Shown piece by piece: positions 38,290-53,599 of a DNA stretch of 56,133 nt (position 1 is the first letter of the stretch; each line of letters begins with the position of its first letter). This stretch comes from a virus. Lineage: Duplodnaviria > Caudoviricetes. Location: positions 1 through 56,133 of IMG/VR virus record IMGVR_UViG_3300024232_000014; one strand, 5' to 3'. A program made the position numbers and the translations under genes. A model generated the notes under the pieces. It saw nothing but the letters and a program-made list of their open reading frames with translations. It was not told the DNA's origin and did no database searches.

Positions 38290-39438
38290 CTAGTCGGTCT
38301 GGAGCGTCTTCCAGTCCATGCCGGTCACGATCTCGGTCCAGCCCTTGGGCGGGCCGAGGTCAGCCTCGCGCCACTTCATCGGGTACGAGGTGGCCGAGGC
38401 CTTCAGGTGCTCGGGCATGATCAGGAAATACGGCTTCTTGTTCACCTGGTCGGTGACGCTGATGCGCCAGTGCCCGTGCTTGTCCTGGAGGAAGGCGATC
38501 AGCGCATTGTCGCCGTGGCGGTAGTCACGGGAGACAAAGCAGACCGGCTCCTTGCGGTTATGCCGGCCGAGCACGTAGTTCGTGTTGGCATGCAGGAACA
38601 TCTGCCCGACCGCGCTGAGCCGCGCCCCGTGCCAGTACTCTCCGGCCTCGGGATGGCCCTTGACCGACTTGCACTTCTCCAGGACGACCGGCTCTCCCAG
38701 GATGATCGCGGTGCGCTCCGTGGGGTTGCCGTAGAAGCACCAGTGCGGGTTGCCGTACGGGTGCACCGCGCCGTCGAAGTACCAGGCACGAGGCGGCGGG
38801 TTAGCCGCCGCCGTGGTGCTCGCCGCCAGCTCCTTCTCGACCACGTTGGGCACGTGCTTGACGTGTATCCACTTGATGTTCCACTCCTGGTTGGCCTTGG
38901 CCGAGGAGATCCCCGGTGACCAGGTAGGCACGTACGGCTTGGTGCTCTTGACGCTCATGTGCACCGGGACCGTGAGGAACAGCGCCTTCTTCTTCGGAGT
39001 CAGGTAGTAGATCTGGTAACCCTTCTCGTAGTGAAGAAAGTGGAACGTGATGTAGAAGGTCTTCGATGGCGCGTCGGTCTCCTTGAACAGCCGCGCCTGG
39101 TTCGACATCCCCTTCTTCCCGATGTTGTAGTTCGGGTTGTAGCCGATCGTCTGCACCTGGCCGACGCCGTGGACCATCCACATGATCCAGCTCGTCTGGA
39201 GCGTGTTGCCGCCCTTGACGCACGGCAGCATGAAGACCCGCGCGCCCTCCTGGTGCTGGAACGGCATGGTGACGCACCAGTGCGGGTTGTCCGTCGGCGT
39301 CAGGATGCCCTCGTAGTAGTAGCCTTCCACGGCAGGCGCGGCTGGCTGTACCGAGGCACTGGCTGACGCGGCTCCCGGTACGAGCAGGGCGGCTGCCGCC
39401 AGCGCTGATGCCAGCGCGTTTCTCCACCTCATCTGCAT
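38290..39438 (-). CDS. secreted protein with two tandem ricin-B-like domains
   Basis: ATG at 39438 with AGGGAGA RBS; signal peptide ending ASA; duplicated Y.[ED]G...P..NPHWC...G..V....C...W units. Confidence 0.7.
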   Translation of the reverse strand: MQMRWRNALASALAAAALLVPGAASASASVQPAAPAVEGYYYEGILTPTDNPHWCVTMPFQHQEGARVFMLPCVKGGNTLQTSWIMWMVHGVGQVQTIGYNPNYNIGKKGMSNQARLFKETDAPSKTFYITFHFLHYEKGYQIYYLTPKKKALFLTVPVHMSVKSTKPYVPTWSPGISSAKANQEWNIKWIHVKHVPNVVEKELAASTTAAANPPPRAWYFDGAVHPYGNPHWCFYGNPTERTAIILGEPVVLEKCKSVKGHPEAGEYWHGARLSAVGQMFLHANTNYVLGRHNRKEPVCFVSRDYRHGDNALIAFLQDKHGHWRISVTDQVNKKPYFLIMPEHLKASATSYPMKWREADLGPPKGWTEIVTGMDWKTLQTD

Positions 39439-39493
39439 CTTCTCCCTTGCGCGACCCGTGAGTTTGTGACCGGCCCTGCGGTGGGTCGAGGGG

Positions 39494-39650
39494 CCGCAGG
39501 GCCGGAGCACAGGGGGAGGGATTCGAACACCTCAAGCACGCATCTGCTGTCACGTGCGTGCGTCGCCGTCAGCATGCCCGTCTCTCGGCGGTCAGCGACA
39601 CCGGATGGCCTGGCTACGTCTACCGGCTCTTCCCCTGTACCTGCCTGCGG
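39494..39650 (-). ncRNA. enlarged tRNA-like structured RNA (candidate)
   Basis: Acceptor-like stem GTACAGGGG/CCCCTGTGC, T-arm GAGGtGTTCGAATCCCTC, three internal hairpins; intergenic. Confidence 0.55.
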
Positions 39651-39809
39651 CAGCAGACCTCGGGAGCGGCCCGGAGGGTTGTGGCCCTGGCCGCTTCCGC
39701 AGGCAAGCTCTTCAGTTAGCGTGCTTGCGCACGTAGTGCCGCCGCCACCTGGCCGGGGTCAGGCACTTCGCCCCGCAGGTACGGCAGAACACGCGGCTGC
39801 CGCCGCGCT

Positions 39810-40325
39810 TCATGCCTTCTCGACAGCGCTCAGCGCGTCGATCAGGCCCTGGACGAACACGCGGTCCAGCTCGGGGTGGTTGTGCGCGAACCGCGCCACG
39901 CCCATGATGACGTGCTCGAACTTGACCAGCGCGCCGGTGCCTGCCGCCTGGATGGCGCGAGTGGCCATGCCGTGGACCTGCGGGTCGTGCGCGGGCGGCG
40001 TCTCCGGCGGGGCGAAGAAGTCCGGCACGACGTTGCCGTCCGCGTCCAGCGTGCGCGGGTCCGGCTCGCCGGTCGTCTCCACCGGCTTGCTCTCGCCGTC
40101 GTCCGCCGGGTCTGGCTCCGGCTCACCAGGTCCAGACGGGGGGACGGTAGGGTCCTGTTCGACGTGCACCTCGCCGGTGACGGTCGTGCCCTCGCCCTTG
40201 TCCACGGTGATCGTGTCCGAGGCGGCGTTGGCGTCGTCCGGAGGAGCCGGTACCGGCGCGTTCGGGTCGGCGTAGGTGTTGGAGGGCGCGGGGGCCGCGC
40301 CCGTCTCTGCTGGCTGCTCGCTCAT
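39810..40325 (-). CDS. acidic Pro-rich hypothetical protein
   Basis: AGGGAGA RBS; disordered N-terminus, helical C-terminus. Confidence 0.6.
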   Translation of the reverse strand: MSEQPAETGAAPAPSNTYADPNAPVPAPPDDANAASDTITVDKGEGTTVTGEVHVEQDPTVPPSGPGEPEPDPADDGESKPVETTGEPDPRTLDADGNVVPDFFAPPETPPAHDPQVHGMATRAIQAAGTGALVKFEHVIMGVARFAHNHPELDRVFVQGLIDALSAVEKA

Positions 40326-40388
40326 CGCGTTCTCCCTCTGTGGTCTGCCTGCTAACGGTACTGCTTCTGCTTCCCAGGCGCTGCCGTC

Positions 40389-40700
40389 CTACCCCTTGCC
40401 GCTGGCCAGGTTCTCCAGCAGGCCGGGCGGTGCGTCCATCGGTCCCGCCAGCCCCGTGGACTTGGCGAACTTCGCGCCCATCAGGTGCGTCCAGCAGACG
40501 GGCACCGGCATGTTGAGCAGCCCGTTGCCGCCCATGAACTGCGGTCCTATCCCGGCTGCGAAGCCGATCACCACGGCGTCCTGGATGTCCTGGCTCTTGA
40601 TGATGCCGCTCTCTGCGGCGTTGCCCAGCTCGCCCTTGGCGAGCAGGCAGCAGATGAAGCAGAAGCCGAGGTCAGCCTCGGGCTGGGGTCCTGAGATCAT
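40389..40700 (-). CDS. hypothetical protein
   Basis: ATG at 40700 (ATGA overlap); C..C...PVC..H. Confidence 0.55.
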   Translation of the reverse strand: MISGPQPEADLGFCFICCLLAKGELGNAAESGIIKSQDIQDAVVIGFAAGIGPQFMGGNGLLNMPVPVCWTHLMGAKFAKSTGLAGPMDAPPGLLENLASGKG

Positions 40701-48354: not shown

Positions 48355-49292
48355 TACCCGTTCTCCCTCTGCCGGAGGTAGCCGAGCACGGAGCGCTCGA
48401 CCGCCGTATCCTCTTCCTCGCGCCGCTTGATGTAGCGGTGCGCGTGCCGTATCACCGTGAGCACCTCTGACCAGGTGAAGCCGCCGCTCTTGTCAGTGGC
48501 CTCCCAGATCTCGCGCATCTCTTCAGTTACCTTACGGTATCCCTCCGCACTCGTGCCCCATTTGCGGAACAGTGAAGCCGCCAGCCGCGACGACACCTCA
48601 TTGCGCGACCCGACGGCCAGCCCGGTCTTCTTCAGCGCCTCCGCCTCGGGCACCTCGGACGTTACTCCCTGCATTCCGGTCGTGCCGGTGCCCGGCGCGT
48701 TCGCCGTCCACTTCTCCGTCCAGTCTGGTGCCGCAGGCAGGGTGCAGGGGCAGCCGGTTTCCCACAGGTACGGTACGATCCGCTCGGTCCCGGCCTGACC
48801 TTCCTCCAGGCGCGGCATCACCAGGCCGGACGGCGGCGCGACGACGTAGCCGCCGTCCGACTTCACGTCCAGGCCGGGCAGCAGGCCGGTCCTGCCCGTC
48901 GCGGAGCCCGCCAGCCACGCGTGCATCCCTCCGCTCGGCGTAGATGACAGCGGTGCCTCCTTCAGGGCCAGCAGCCCGGCTTCCGGAGCCGGGGGCGGCC
49001 CGAGCAGGAACTTCCCGAACTCCTCCATGCCGTTCGCGCCGCCCTTGACGTCGAAGTCGAGCACCACCAGGCCGTCGCCGGTAGCCAGCCCGATGTTGGC
49101 GTGCGGGGTGCGTCCCCACAGGGAGATGATGTCCCAGGGGTTCGAGGTCGCCTCAAGCACCCCCGACCCGCCGCCCATCGGCCTCTTCGAGCCCCTGGCC
49201 AGCGGGAATACCCGGTAGCCCATCTCGGCGTACAGCCGGGCGAAGTCCCCGAGGGTCCTCCGCCCGGCTGCATGCTCCTCGAACGTGTGCAC
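48354..49292 (-). CDS. bifunctional DNA primase/polymerase (Prim-Pol)
   Basis: G.RVFPL...SKRP, ANIGLATG..LVVLDFDVK, TPSGG.H.W, GLDVK..GGYVVAPPS; C-terminal G.RN PriCT-like. Confidence 0.9.
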   Translation of the reverse strand: MHTFEEHAAGRRTLGDFARLYAEMGYRVFPLARGSKRPMGGGSGVLEATSNPWDIISLWGRTPHANIGLATGDGLVVLDFDVKGGANGMEEFGKFLLGPPPAPEAGLLALKEAPLSSTPSGGMHAWLAGSATGRTGLLPGLDVKSDGGYVVAPPSGLVMPRLEEGQAGTERIVPYLWETGCPCTLPAAPDWTEKWTANAPGTGTTGMQGVTSEVPEAEALKKTGLAVGSRNEVSSRLAASLFRKWGTSAEGYRKVTEEMREIWEATDKSGGFTWSEVLTVIRHAHRYIKRREEEDTAVERSVLGYLRQRENG

Positions 49293-53176: not shown

Positions 53177-53599
53177 ATGATAGGTCCTTTCACCGGCGGT
53201 TACTCGTGGCTTTCGAATTTCTATGAACGACCGTTCGTTATGGGCAACCAGTTCTTCACTTACCTGACGGTTGAGCACTACTACCAGGCGATGAAGGCGG
53301 ACACCGCTGTCGCGGAGTGCTGGATAAGGACGGCTCCCACTCCCGGCGAGGCCAAGAAGCGCGGACGGGGCATTCAGATGCGGCCGGGCTTCGAGCGGGA
53401 CAAGCGGGCGGTCATGCTGCGCGGCCTGATGGGCAAGTTCATGCAGCACGAGGACCTGCGGAGCATGCTCACCGCCACCGGGGACCAGGAGCTGGTCGAG
53501 GTCAATACCTGGGGCGACCGATACTGGGGACGGGTCAGCGGCCAGGGCGAGAACTGGCTCGGCAAGACGCTGATGATGACGAGGGAGCTACTGTCGTGA
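53177..53599 (+). CDS. NADAR (YbiA-like) family protein
   Basis: F...Y.WLSNFY, TVEHYYQA.K, P.EAK..GR, M......KF.Q...L...L..TG...LVE....DRYWG...G.N.LG..LM..R. Confidence 0.9.
   Translation: MIGPFTGGYSWLSNFYERPFVMGNQFFTYLTVEHYYQAMKADTAVAECWIRTAPTPGEAKKRGRGIQMRPGFERDKRAVMLRGLMGKFMQHEDLRSMLTATGDQELVEVNTWGDRYWGRVSGQGENWLGKTLMMTRELLS

What the first reader, a model, noticed from the sequence alone, without database searches (positions are those of the whole stretch)
39494..39650. Enlarged tRNA-like RNA
Seen on the minus strand: 5' GTACAGGGG pairs with 3' CCCCTGTGC, and the 3' strand is directly preceded by a T-arm with the GTTCGAATC loop consensus. Between them are three hairpins (GCCGG..CCGGT; GTCGCTG..CGGCGAC; GCACGCA..TGCGTGC) in D, anticodon and variable-arm order but much longer, about 135 nt in total. 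An outer CCGCAGG/CCTGCGG stem encloses it. There is no normal 7-nt anticodon loop and no CCA. Inference: a tRNA mimic (YrlA-like Y RNA, decoy for anticodon nucleases, or RNase P/Z processing signal), not a decoding tRNA.
Basis: partly seen in the sequence, partly recalled or inferred. Interest (0 to 1): 0.75.

Follow-up and report, generated by a model that had tools for sequence, protein, structure and literature searches.

The report
Oversized orphan tRNA-like phage RNA element
A 134-base stretch between two genes of a soil actinobacterial phage folds like the top half of a transfer RNA wrapped around extra hairpins; it is probably a non-decoding tRNA relic or mimic, but no relatives or expression data were found that would prove a function.

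Summary
On the minus strand (39640-39507) a 9-bp terminal helix abuts a T-arm carrying the window's only GTTCGAATC. Chance expectation for the combination is about 2e-4 per window. Some details fail: the T stem has a bulged U, and folding prefers alternatives to the 'D' and 'anticodon' hairpins and to the outer CCGCAGG/CCTGCGG stem. ARAGORN and the Rfam tRNA, tmRNA and YrlA models all miss it. The same YrlA scan does pick up Y-RNA-like genes in TerL-related phages, one beside a Ro60 gene. The window has no Ro60, integrase or tRNA. The acceptor/T-arm is closest to actinobacterial class II tRNA-Ser/Leu, with two compensatory acceptor changes. The interior shows no significant similarity to them. 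No homologue was found in phage, IMG/VR, metagenome or genome collections. The nearest relative lacks the element at the syntenic site, and co-occurring strains carry unlike sequence there. Best reading (0.4): an accessory, tRNA-derived, non-decoding acceptor/T-arm minihelix, co-transcribed with the leftward genes and probably cut by RNase P. A dead tRNA relic (0.25) and chance (0.15) remain. Interest is modest.

The parts
39507..39640 (-). The tRNA-like element, 134 nt: a terminal 9-bp helix enclosing three hairpin-forming segments and a T-arm
   Evidence: Sequence; fold z -2.28; helix probabilities
39632..39640 (-). 5' strand of the acceptor-like helix (GT + ACAGGGG)
   Evidence: Pairs with 39515-39507, p 0.995. 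Positions 1-2 differ from actinobacterial tRNA-Ser, with compensating changes at 71-72
39600..39627 (-). CCGGT, 18-nt loop)
   Evidence: Complementary on paper but p about 0.01 in the ensemble. Loop similarity to the tRNA-Ser/Leu D loops is not above shuffles
39562..39599 (-).
   Evidence: Sequence; p about 0.01
39536..39561 (-). Perfect 7-bp hairpin with a 12-nt loop, at the variable-arm (or anticodon-arm) position
   Evidence: p 0.996
39516..39533 (-). T-arm-like hairpin: GAGG, bulged T, G / TTCGAAT / C, CCTC
   Evidence: Only GTTCGAATC in the window; 4-bp stem p 0.95, closing pair p 0.45
39507..39515 (-). 3' strand of the acceptor-like helix; in a 7-bp reading G39508 is the discriminator; no CCA follows
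   Evidence: Sequence
39642..39705 (-). Upstream compound hairpin.
   Evidence: In-context MFE
39470..39505 (-). 12-bp G+C-rich hairpin without a T run, 3 nt after the element. It is a terminator-like or stabilising hairpin
   Evidence: Sequence; in-context MFE; not called by the T-run terminator scan
39712..39813 (-). Upstream 33-aa Cys-rich ORF; its ATG overlaps the stop of the 171-aa gene (ATGA)
   Evidence: Read; frame checked by hand
38290..39438 (-). Downstream gene for a 382-aa secreted protein (P0001) with an RBS about 30 nt after the hairpin
   Evidence: Translation; no Pfam or PHROG family

Best explanation
The element is a real, tRNA-derived but non-decoding tRNA-like RNA module. 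It has an acceptor stem stacked on a T-arm, of the kind seen in actinobacterial class II tRNA-Ser/Leu, closing about 97 nt of G+C-rich hairpins that no longer resemble a D arm or an anticodon arm.

It lies on the transcribed (minus) strand. Upstream is a 33-aa ORF and downstream a secreted-protein gene. It has no promoter of its own that I could see, so it is most likely made as part of the leftward polycistronic transcript.

Inferred mechanism. The acceptor/T-arm coaxial stack is the part of a pre-tRNA that RNase P recognises. The host enzyme would cut 5' of A39638, which has a U at -1. The 3' side would be trimmed back towards G39508, after which a CCA-adding enzyme could act.

This would release a stable RNA of about 130 nt. 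It would also cut the upstream message from the message of the secreted protein ('punctuation'). The downstream message would then start near the 12-bp hairpin.

The element is an accessory, mosaic module, not a core gene of the phage lineage.

Shown: the anatomy, its improbability by chance, the likeness of the acceptor/T-arm to class II tRNAs, and its absence from relatives. Inferred: transcription, cleavage, stability and any trans-acting role.
For: (1) The 9-bp helix, the perfect 7-bp hairpin and the T-arm are robust in the ensemble (p 0.995, 0.996, 0.95). The fold is better than 195 of 200 shuffles.

(2) The window's single GTTCGAATC (0.25 expected) sits in a stem, directly followed by a strand with a 9-bp partner. 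The joint background rate is 6.7e-4 per position.

(3) The 20-nt stretch from T-loop to acceptor, allowed <=3 mismatches, hits 275 of 401 genomes sampled from the phylum of an Acidimicrobiales MAG. I examined 17 loci: the 12 the tool returned plus all 5 listed two-mismatch hits. Of these, 15 carry a class II tRNA at the match (8 tRNA-Ser, 7 tRNA-Leu) and 2 carry none.

(4) Against those tRNA-Ser, the acceptor differs at positions 1-2 (GG to AC) and 71-72 (CC to GT). Both pairs are therefore kept through double changes, and the discriminator G is kept.

(5) The strand matches the gene array. The element is bracketed by hairpins, and the next gene's RBS follows within about 65 nt.

(6) TerL-related phages (40-70% identity, 26 loci) carry other odd tRNA mimics in comparable hairpin-flanked gaps. 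These include 119- and 120-nt enlarged tRNAs (38.9 and 25.3 bits) and YrlA-like RNAs. Such genes are therefore at home in this group.

(7) Bacterial RNase P is reported to process polycistronic mRNAs, phage-induced regulatory RNAs and tRNA-like 3' modules such as mascRNA (PMC4919922, passages read).
Against: - No homologue was found, so there is no covariation at all. Searches that gave nothing: phages by blastn, IMG/VR patterns, metagenome contigs, and the 26 TerL relatives by DNA (best E 0.008, in what read as coding sequence in the two matches I read).
- The interior has no significant similarity to tRNA-Ser or tRNA-Leu. The best local score was 15 against a shuffle mean of 16.7 (412 of 500 shuffles at least as high), and 16 against 16.0 (270 of 500).
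- A tRNA-Ser covariance model gives only 14.5 bits, E 0.28. It is the top hit of the window but is level with noise hits at 14.3 and 13.8 bits.
- Models of the relatives' enlarged tRNAs give 10.3 and 9.9 bits; the second ranks 17th in the window at E 3.7.
- The nearest relative (G402, TerL 70%) goes straight from its homologue of the upstream 171-aa gene (E 1.7e-5) into a secreted-protein gene with no such element.
- In co-occurring soil strains the element is either identical or replaced. An X2 contig leaves the window at 39481 with 255 unlike letters. X6 contigs stop fitting at 39481 and 39719 (tables 7 and 8).
- The identity seen in X4 (0 of its 17 differences fall in 39476-39761) is best read as a mosaic boundary, not as purifying selection, because X4 is also identical over 38915-39224.
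- No promoter or T-run terminator was called. There are no RNA data.
- Over a scan of about 250,000 windows, a 2e-4 chance event is expected some tens of times.
Confidence: 0.4

Rival explanations
1. It is a dead relic of a class II tRNA gene (tRNA-Ser or tRNA-Leu type) that the phage once carried. The acceptor and T-arm survive, the D and anticodon arms have been overwritten by insertions and small duplications, and the RNA has no role.
For: The acceptor/T-arm is nearest to tRNA-Ser/Leu. The layout of helices around a junction matches a class II tRNA. GTAGAC followed by GTAGCC looks like a 6-nt tandem duplication. The last 7 nt of the second hairpin's loop read like a Ser(GCU) anticodon loop with U33. 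The element is dispensable: it is absent at the syntenic site in G402 and replaced in other strains. No tRNA detector accepts it.
Against: Decay should leave mismatches, yet all helices are intact: 9/9, 7/7, 7/7 and 5/5 pairs counting G-U. The two acceptor differences from tRNA-Ser are compensated. Growth by more than 40 nt while stems stay perfect is not the usual picture of decay. The D-loop and anticodon-loop likenesses are not above chance.
Confidence: 0.25
2. It is a chance arrangement. The G+C-rich spacer holds ordinary terminator or stabiliser hairpins, and a TTCGAA palindrome happens to sit in one of them next to a complementary run.
For: The genome is 67% G+C and rich in stems (170 inverted-repeat pairs). 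Relaxed ARAGORN settings draw several mutually exclusive 'tRNAs' here. CM scores sit at noise level. With about 250,000 windows scanned, a 2e-4 event is expected tens of times.
Against: The joint expectation is about 2e-4 for this window. On top of that come the right strand, an intergenic site, the exact 0-nt junction and 18 of 20 identity to real tRNA-Ser 3' ends with compensated acceptor changes. The element alone has z -2.28.
Confidence: 0.15
3. It is a trans-acting tRNA mimic. It would act as a decoy or sponge for host factors that bind the tRNA elbow and acceptor, such as tRNA-targeting defence nucleases, modification enzymes or the CCA-adding enzyme. Alternatively it would be a chargeable non-decoding acceptor.
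For: The T-loop and acceptor are intact. Relatives invest in tRNA mimics, including YrlA-like RNAs, one beside a Ro60 gene. Presence or absence among strains fits a counter-defence accessory gene.
Against: There is no anticodon stem-loop to attract an anticodon nuclease. The G2-C71 pair seen in all 8 tRNA-Ser compared is replaced by C-G. From recall, that pair matters for seryl-tRNA synthetase. There is no partner gene, no homologue and no expression evidence.
Confidence: 0.08
4. It is a Y RNA (YrlA or Yrn1 type) that binds a Ro60 protein.
For: There is a T-arm with the conserved loop and a long terminal helix with an internal loop if the outer stem forms. A TerL relative (G426) has a Ro60 gene with a YrlA-like RNA next to it. 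One GNCGAA(N)G match lies at 39772.
Against: RF02553 gives no hit at E<=10, while relatives score 22.1 and 20.1 bits. There is no TROVE gene in the 56 kb. The arm order is not permuted. The motif match lies inside the 33-aa ORF, about 130 nt upstream of the element, and about 0.2 such matches are expected in that stretch (my own estimate). The site after TerL, where G426 keeps Ro60, holds the next structural gene here.
Confidence: 0.04
5. It is an attP site or an integration scar that copies part of a host tRNA gene.
For: Actinobacterial phages and plasmids often integrate into tRNA 3' ends (recalled). The 3' 20 nt are tRNA-Ser-like.
Against: No tyrosine integrase or serine recombinase is in the window. 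The 19-mer from T-loop to acceptor occurs in only 3 places among 185,579 species genomes: two archaeal tRNA-Leu and one place where ARAGORN finds no tRNA and the sequence looks like coding sequence. None is a bacterial tRNA. Both acceptor strands are present, which an attP core does not need. No matching direct repeat is in the window.
Confidence: 0.03

Closest known systems
Class II tRNAs (tRNA-Ser, tRNA-Leu) of Actinomycetota
   Same: The T-arm and the inner five acceptor pairs are identical or nearly so: 18 of 20 nt to tRNA-Ser 3' ends. The discriminator G is shared. The T-arm to acceptor junction is 0 nt. The helices are arranged around one junction.
   Different: The element is 134 nt against 87-94 nt. 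It has no recognisable D arm and no 7-nt anticodon loop on a 5-bp stem. It has a bulged U in the T stem and a 9-bp terminal helix. Acceptor pairs 1-72 and 2-71 are changed. It is rejected by ARAGORN, RF00005 and a tRNA-Ser model.
YrlA / bacterial Y RNAs (Chen et al. 2014, PMC4201824; Rfam RF02553)
   Same: Both are non-decoding RNAs with a tRNA-type T-arm. YrlA-type RNAs are known in phages, and YrlA-like genes occur in relatives of this phage.
   Different: YrlA is encoded beside Ro60. Its order is T-arm, acceptor-like hairpin, D-arm inside a Ro-binding stem with a GNCGAA(N)G motif (passages read). Here there is no Ro60, no RF02553 hit, a tRNA-like arm order and no D arm.
RNase P-processed tRNA-like modules inside longer transcripts (mascRNA of MALAT1, plant mitochondrial t-elements, phage-induced regulatory RNAs, polycistronic mRNAs; review PMC4919922)
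   Same: An acceptor/T-arm mimic is embedded in a longer transcript between or after genes, so cleavage would both free a small RNA and define mRNA ends.
   Different: Those cases are shown experimentally, whereas here cleavage is inferred. The element is about twice the size of mascRNA and carries extra hairpins.
tmRNA tRNA-like domain
   Same: An acceptor stem plus T-arm closes a large non-tRNA interior, and there is no anticodon arm.
   Different: RF00023 and ARAGORN tmRNA give no hit. There is no credible tag frame; a 'permuted tmRNA' appears only at a 70% score threshold. No CCA is encoded, and a hairpin lies between the long helix and the T-arm.
Enlarged tRNA-like genes of TerL-related IMG/VR phages (L054 1501-1619, L056 1501-1620)
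   Same: They are 119-120 nt with an acceptor, a T-arm and a roughly 65-nt interior in place of the anticodon arm. They sit in hairpin-flanked gaps among small genes upstream of the packaging genes.
   Different: They keep a canonical D arm and score as tRNA (38.9 and 25.3 bits). Models built from them give the window's element only 10.3 and 9.9 bits, so homology is not shown.
Phage T4 RNA C and RNA D
   Same: These are small stable phage RNAs from the tRNA region whose roles are unknown (PMC3014915, one passage read). Their size of 120-140 nt and tRNA-like ends are recalled, not seen in any call.
   Different: They lie in a tRNA cluster of a distant phage, and no sequence comparison was made.

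Membership tests
tRNA (Rfam RF00005 / ARAGORN) | Scores as a cloverleaf with the family model | tested here: not met
   0 genes; 0 at gathering score; no RF00005 hit at E<=10 on 351 nt or in the record. Controls: 14 of 14 genomes ring.
tRNA (Rfam RF00005 / ARAGORN) | 5-bp anticodon stem with a 7-nt loop | tested here: not met
   The loops are 24 and 12 nt. ARAGORN with introns allowed finds nothing at default or 90% thresholds, and only mismatched models at 80% or lower.
tRNA (Rfam RF00005 / ARAGORN) | D arm with the conserved loop | tested here: inconclusive
   TAGCC.GGCC and GGTAGACG resemble Ser and Leu D loops, but the scores are not above shuffles (412 and 270 of 500 shuffles at least as high). 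The stem has p 0.01.
tRNA (Rfam RF00005 / ARAGORN) | T-arm with a TTCGAAT-type loop stacked on a 7-bp acceptor stem | tested here: met
   One bulged U lies in the T stem.
tRNA-Ser of Actinomycetota (model R1 built from 8 genes) | Significant full-length match to a class II Ser model | tested here: not met
   14.5 bits, E 0.28. It is the top hit of the window, but it uses another 5' partner and is level with noise at 14.3 and 13.8 bits.
tmRNA | Match to RF00023 or ARAGORN tmRNA, with a tag reading frame | tested here: not met
   Only a 70%-threshold 'permuted' call with an unidentified tag.
YrlA Y RNA (RF02553) | Match to the family model | tested here: not met
   No hit at E<=10. As a positive control, relatives score 22.1 bits (L050) and 20.1 bits (L055), both below the gathering score of 69.
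YrlA Y RNA (RF02553) | Encoded next to a Ro60 (TROVE) gene | tested here: not met
   0 TROVE matches at E<=1 in the 56 kb. The record is estimated 63% complete, so a distant copy cannot be excluded.
YrlA Y RNA (RF02553) | Order T-arm, acceptor-like hairpin, D-arm within a terminal stem carrying GNCGAA(N)G | tested here: not met
   The T-arm is last and abuts the terminal helix. The only motif match is at 39772 inside the upstream ORF.
Enlarged tRNA-like genes of related phages (models R2, R3) | Significant match to models built from L054 and L056 | tested here: not met
   Not found with default filters. 10.3 bits on 361 nt. 9.9 bits, E 3.7, 17th in the window.
RNase P substrate (pre-tRNA-like minihelix) | Acceptor stem coaxial with a T stem-loop, and a single-stranded or weakly paired 5' leader | tested here: met
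   Structure only. The two leader bases can pair with the trailer.
RNase P substrate (pre-tRNA-like minihelix) | Actual cleavage at -1/+1 | not testable with these tools
   No RNA run holds the stretch. An enzyme assay is needed.
attP on a tRNA gene | Adjacent integrase, and identity with a host tRNA 3' segment | tested here: not met
   No PF00589 or PF00239. The 19-mer is found in 3 places, none a bacterial tRNA.

The most novel reading that the evidence does not exclude
The element is a working member of a so far undescribed kind of phage RNA. It would be an oversized, non-decoding descendant of a class II tRNA that keeps only the parts read by RNase P, the CCA-adding enzyme, elbow-binding enzymes and perhaps a synthetase. 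It would be cut out of a polycistronic message. It would then act in trans as a sponge or decoy for host tRNA-binding factors or tRNA-directed defences, or as a chargeable acceptor outside translation. It would be traded among strains as an accessory cassette, in a soil actinophage group that also carries Ro60/YrlA and other enlarged tRNA mimics.
Probability: 0.15. Interest if true: 0.7.

Novelty: new variant of a known kind. Interest (0 to 1): 0.38.

Why it matters
Phage tRNA mimics are few and mostly unexplained (YrlA, tmRNA-like genes, T4 RNA C and D). If this element is processed and stable, it would add a type in which only the acceptor/T-arm 'handle' of a class II tRNA is kept around a new interior. 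It would also show tRNA-style punctuation of a phage operon in actinobacteria. Its presence or absence among co-occurring strains would make it a natural test case for what such mimics buy a phage. If it is a relic or chance, it warns that a T-loop plus a G+C-rich stem is weak evidence in genomes of 67% G+C.

Tried and rejected
Searches that led nowhere.
- Megablast and blastn of the locus against 50,697 phage records gave no match, or four chance matches of 26-40 nt.
- tblastn of P0001 against phages gave none.
- P0001 and the D5-type primase as queries in IMG/VR gave no relative.
- P0001 in metagenome contigs: 27 pattern hits, none a relative.
- Exact patterns from the element and from the conserved leader of P0001 gave 0 hits in IMG/VR and in metagenome contigs.
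- P0001 has only 2 related clusters among 5.8 billion proteins.

Other items tried and set aside.
- A second 36-nt match inside the window (48723-48758) lies in a region of overlapping long ORFs with no tRNA-like context, and I took it for chance.
- I considered that the interior derives from tRNA-Ser(GCU) with insertions (D-loop duplication, a 17-nt insert before ATGCTGA). I keep it only as a lead, because the similarity is not above shuffles and the Ser model is not significant.
- Homology with the enlarged tRNAs of relatives through shared TGACC and CAGCAG motifs was rejected by models R2 and R3.
- Short blastn matches of the element's 5' part in G413 and G402 lie in what read as coding sequence.
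- GTTCGANTC is not enriched in the 26 relatives: 21 matches against 20 for the reversed control.
- P0002 against the ORF upstream of the L054 RNAs gave E 0.052, too weak to claim synteny.
- No RNA holder was listed for the stretch. This says nothing about expression.
- X6 and X8 have bins without cover over the element (table 2). A lack of cover alone proves nothing. I used only the contigs' unlaid remainders and the X2 loose end.
That list is filtered on GC3 and misses genes, so I draw no conclusion from it.
- Supplementary tables of the YrlA paper (lists of phages and models) are closed and may bear on the YrlA comparison.
Full report
**Where it lies.** The window is a whole IMG/VR virus record of 56,133 bases, linear and estimated 63% complete, with about 67% G+C. 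It carries a family A DNA polymerase, a Prim-Pol, a D5-type primase/helicase, a NADAR protein, an amidase with a peptidoglycan-binding domain and an Rpf-like transglycosylase. The best tblastn hits of the primase are at most 28% identical and are mostly actinobacterial phages. Public runs that hold the locus are soil metagenomes. Nearly all high-GC3 ORFs between 1.2 and 51.4 kb are on the minus strand, the same strand as the finding.

The element lies in a 273-nt gap. Upstream is a 33-aa Cys-rich ORF (39813-39712) whose ATG overlaps the stop of a 171-aa gene (P0002). Downstream is a 382-aa secreted protein (P0001). Neither has a Pfam or PHROG family.

**Checking the observation.** The terminal helix is there: GTACAGGGG with CCCCTGTGC, 39640-39632 with 39515-39507. 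So are the adjoining T-arm-like hairpin (39533-39516) and the perfect GCACGCA/TGCGTGC hairpin (39561-39536). All three dominate the thermodynamic ensemble, with p 0.995, 0.95 and 0.996, and 0.91, 0.95 and 0.995 when the whole gap is folded.

The T stem is not clean. It reads GAGG, a bulged T, then G, opposite C and CCTC. The closing pair has p 0.45.

RNAfold replaces them with one long irregular hairpin (-57.8 against -45.7 kcal/mol).

CCGCAGG closes an upstream compound hairpin (39705-39642). CCTGCGG is half of a 12-bp hairpin that starts 3 nt after the element (39505-39470).

The 134-nt element folds better than 195 of 200 shuffles (z -2.28).

**Is it more than chance?** GTTCGAATC occurs once in the window, against 0.25 expected. 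Across all positions of both strands, 1.8% have a T-type stem around a 7-nt loop. A fully paired 9-mer partner lies 60-200 nt upstream for 2.6%. Both hold for 15 of about 22,333 sampled positions. The product is about 2e-4 per window, before counting strand, intergenic site and the exact junction.

That makes chance unlikely here. Over the size of this scan it is not impossible, so I keep it as a rival at 0.15.

**What it is not.**
- ARAGORN finds no tRNA or tmRNA in the window.
- Rfam finds nothing at gathering scores. On 351 nt at E<=10 it lists six weak matches (best E 0.17; all 35 bits or more below their gathering scores), none to tRNA, tmRNA or YrlA.
- RF00005 finds nothing in the record at E<=10, while ringing in 14 of 14 control genomes.
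- With introns allowed, ARAGORN stays silent at default and 90% thresholds. At 80% or lower it draws mutually exclusive, mismatched models.
- There is no TROVE/Ro60 gene, no tyrosine integrase and no serine recombinase.

**What its tRNA-like half resembles.** The 19-mer from T-loop to acceptor occurs in only three places among one genome each of 185,579 species. Two are archaeal tRNA-Leu. In the third (L004) ARAGORN finds no tRNA and the sequence looks like coding sequence. The element is therefore not a copy of a host tRNA end.

With up to three mismatches, the 20-mer hits 275 of 401 genomes sampled from the phylum of an Acidimicrobiales MAG (seven of these genomes are unpublished and enter only this tally). 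I looked at 17 loci: the 12 the tool returned and all five listed two-mismatch hits. Fifteen carry a class II tRNA at the match (8 Ser, 7 Leu) and two carry none.

Aligned with six of these tRNA-Ser, the element shares the T-arm (apart from the extra T), acceptor pairs 3-7 and the discriminator G. It differs at 1-2 and 71-72 in a way that keeps both pairs.

This is the best evidence that the module descends from, or copies, a class II tRNA. The loci were picked by likeness to this very 20-mer, however, so only the 5' strand and the tRNA class are independent observations.

**The interior gives no such support.**
- Its best local alignment to the D and anticodon arms of the 8 Ser and 7 Leu genes is no better than for shuffles (412 and 270 of 500 at least as high).
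- That holds despite eye-catching runs: TAGCC.GGCC as in a Ser D loop, GGTAGACG as in a Leu D arm, and ATGCTGA as a would-be Ser(GCU) anticodon loop.
- A covariance model of the 8 tRNA-Ser puts its top hit of the window on the element's 3' part. The score is only 14.5 bits (E 0.28), beside noise at 14.3 and 13.8, and the model picks a different 5' partner.

**Relatives.** No close relative could be read. TerL did find 26 IMG/VR loci at 40-70% identity. None has DNA like the gap (I read two of the short matches, and both lie in what read as coding sequence). None has P0001.

The closest relative (G402, complete) has a homologue of P0002 (E 1.7e-5). That gene is followed directly by a signal-peptide gene with no RNA element.

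The group is nevertheless rich in tRNA mimics:
- Two records hold 119- and 120-nt tRNAs with normal acceptor, D and T arms and a roughly 65-nt interior (38.9 and 25.3 bits). They match each other at 46 bits with four compensated pairs.
- One of them is preceded by a 44-nt acceptor/T-arm minihelix that matches only the ends of the tmRNA model.
- Two records hold an RNA with the YrlA order of arms (20.1 bits).
- G426 has a Ro60 gene just after a YrlA-like RNA (22.1 bits).

Models built from the enlarged tRNAs give the window's element 10.3 bits on 361 nt and 9.9 bits (E 3.7, rank 17) on the window. Homology is therefore not shown. These relatives raise the prior that odd tRNA-like genes in this group are real, and nothing more.

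**Population data.** Contigs of four soil runs from four studies were laid on 38900-40300.
- Where the element is covered it is identical: X2 records 4 and 5, X8 record 27, X4 record 11.
- In X4 all 17 differences of a 576-nt contig lie at 39762 or beyond, and none lies in 39476-39761. X4 is also identical further left, so this is a mosaic junction inside the 33-aa ORF. It is not proof of selection on the RNA.
- An X2 contig departs from the window at 39481, in the loop of the downstream hairpin, and runs on for 255 unlike letters.
- By their record coordinates, an X6 contig has 137 unlaid letters beyond 39481 and another has 171 before 39719.

Some co-occurring strains therefore keep both flanking genes but carry something else in the gap. 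I could not read that sequence. It is the single most useful piece of missing data.

**Mechanism.** The part that survives intact is what RNase P measures on a pre-tRNA, namely the acceptor stem stacked on the T stem-loop. The base before the 7-bp stem is U. No promoter-like site was found in the 1.6 kb scanned around the element (38800-40400), so the gap has none. The next gene's RBS lies about 65 nt after the element.

I therefore propose that the element is transcribed within the leftward operon and cut at its 5' side by RNase P. Trimming at the 3' side would free a structured RNA of about 130 nt and uncouple the upstream message from that of the secreted protein. Precedents for RNase P acting on polycistronic mRNAs, phage regulatory RNAs and embedded tRNA-like modules are listed in PMC4919922 (passages read).

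That many actinobacterial tRNA genes lack an encoded CCA is recalled, not tested. Among the 8 tRNA-Ser used here, 5 encode CCA. Whether the freed RNA does anything in trans is open.

**Verdict.** 'Non-decoding tRNA-like' holds, YrlA does not, the decoy idea is untested, and a processing signal is plausible. The element is an orphan and a new variant of a known kind (tRNA-derived, tRNA-like modules). It has no covariation or expression evidence, and real rivals remain: relic 0.25, chance 0.15. Interest is modest (0.38). If the RNA proves to be processed and active in trans, it would deserve about 0.7.

Noticed in passing
L050 11600-11900 (IMG/VR record G426), with the Ro60 gene at G426:52011-52928: A TerL relative (60% identity) has, right after TerL, an RNA with T-arm, 7-bp acceptor-like hairpin and D-arm in the YrlA order, plus a GGCGAAAG motif upstream. 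A TROVE/Ro60 gene follows (563-aa frame, 70.6 bits). RF02553 scores it only 22.1 bits against a gathering score of 69, so standard annotation would miss it.
   Followed up: partly
L055 1591-1690 and 1501-1569 (minus); L057 same positions: Two small IMG/VR contigs carry a full-length but sub-threshold YrlA-like RNA (20.1 bits in L055). A 69-nt degenerate tRNA (24 bits) directly follows it. No Ro60 gene lies on these fragments, which are 6% and 15% complete.
   Followed up: partly
L054 1450-1493 and 1501-1619; L056 1501-1620 (minus): A 44-nt acceptor/T-arm minihelix matches only the two ends of the tmRNA model (21.3 bits). It is followed 7 nt later by a 119-nt tRNA with normal D and T arms and a roughly 65-nt interior. 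A 120-nt homologue in another record matches at 46 bits, with four compensated pairs. The family is not in Rfam.
   Followed up: partly
L006 718-836 (minus), an AT-rich IMG/VR contig: An unrelated phage has a 119-nt tRNA-like gene with the same bulged T-arm 18-mer, an 8-bp acceptor stem, a class II D arm, a long variable arm and a 12-bp 'anticodon' helix. It has its own TTGACT/TATACT promoter and an upstream terminator. RF00005 gives 24.2 bits, ARAGORN finds none, and no homologue is in 50,697 phage records.
   Followed up: partly
window 38290-39438 (minus): P0001 is a secreted protein with two copies of a domain marked by NPHWC. It has no Pfam or PHROG family and only two related clusters among 5.8 billion proteins. 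One is 99% identical; the other is a single-domain 217-aa protein at 37%.
   Followed up: partly
window 39712-39813 (minus): An unlisted 33-aa ORF with CxxC and a basic, His-containing tail, translationally coupled (ATGA) to the 171-aa gene. A mosaic junction between strains falls inside it at about 39762.
   Followed up: no
window 39470-39505 and L056 1630-1668: The stem CCGGCCCTGC/GCAGGGCCGG of the hairpin after the window's element recurs in the hairpin before the enlarged tRNA of a relative. This may be a shared terminator type or chance in G+C-rich DNA.
   Followed up: no
window 53177-53599 (plus): A 140-aa NADAR-domain protein (E 1.3e-28) lies among the rightward replication genes next to the family A polymerase.
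   Followed up: no
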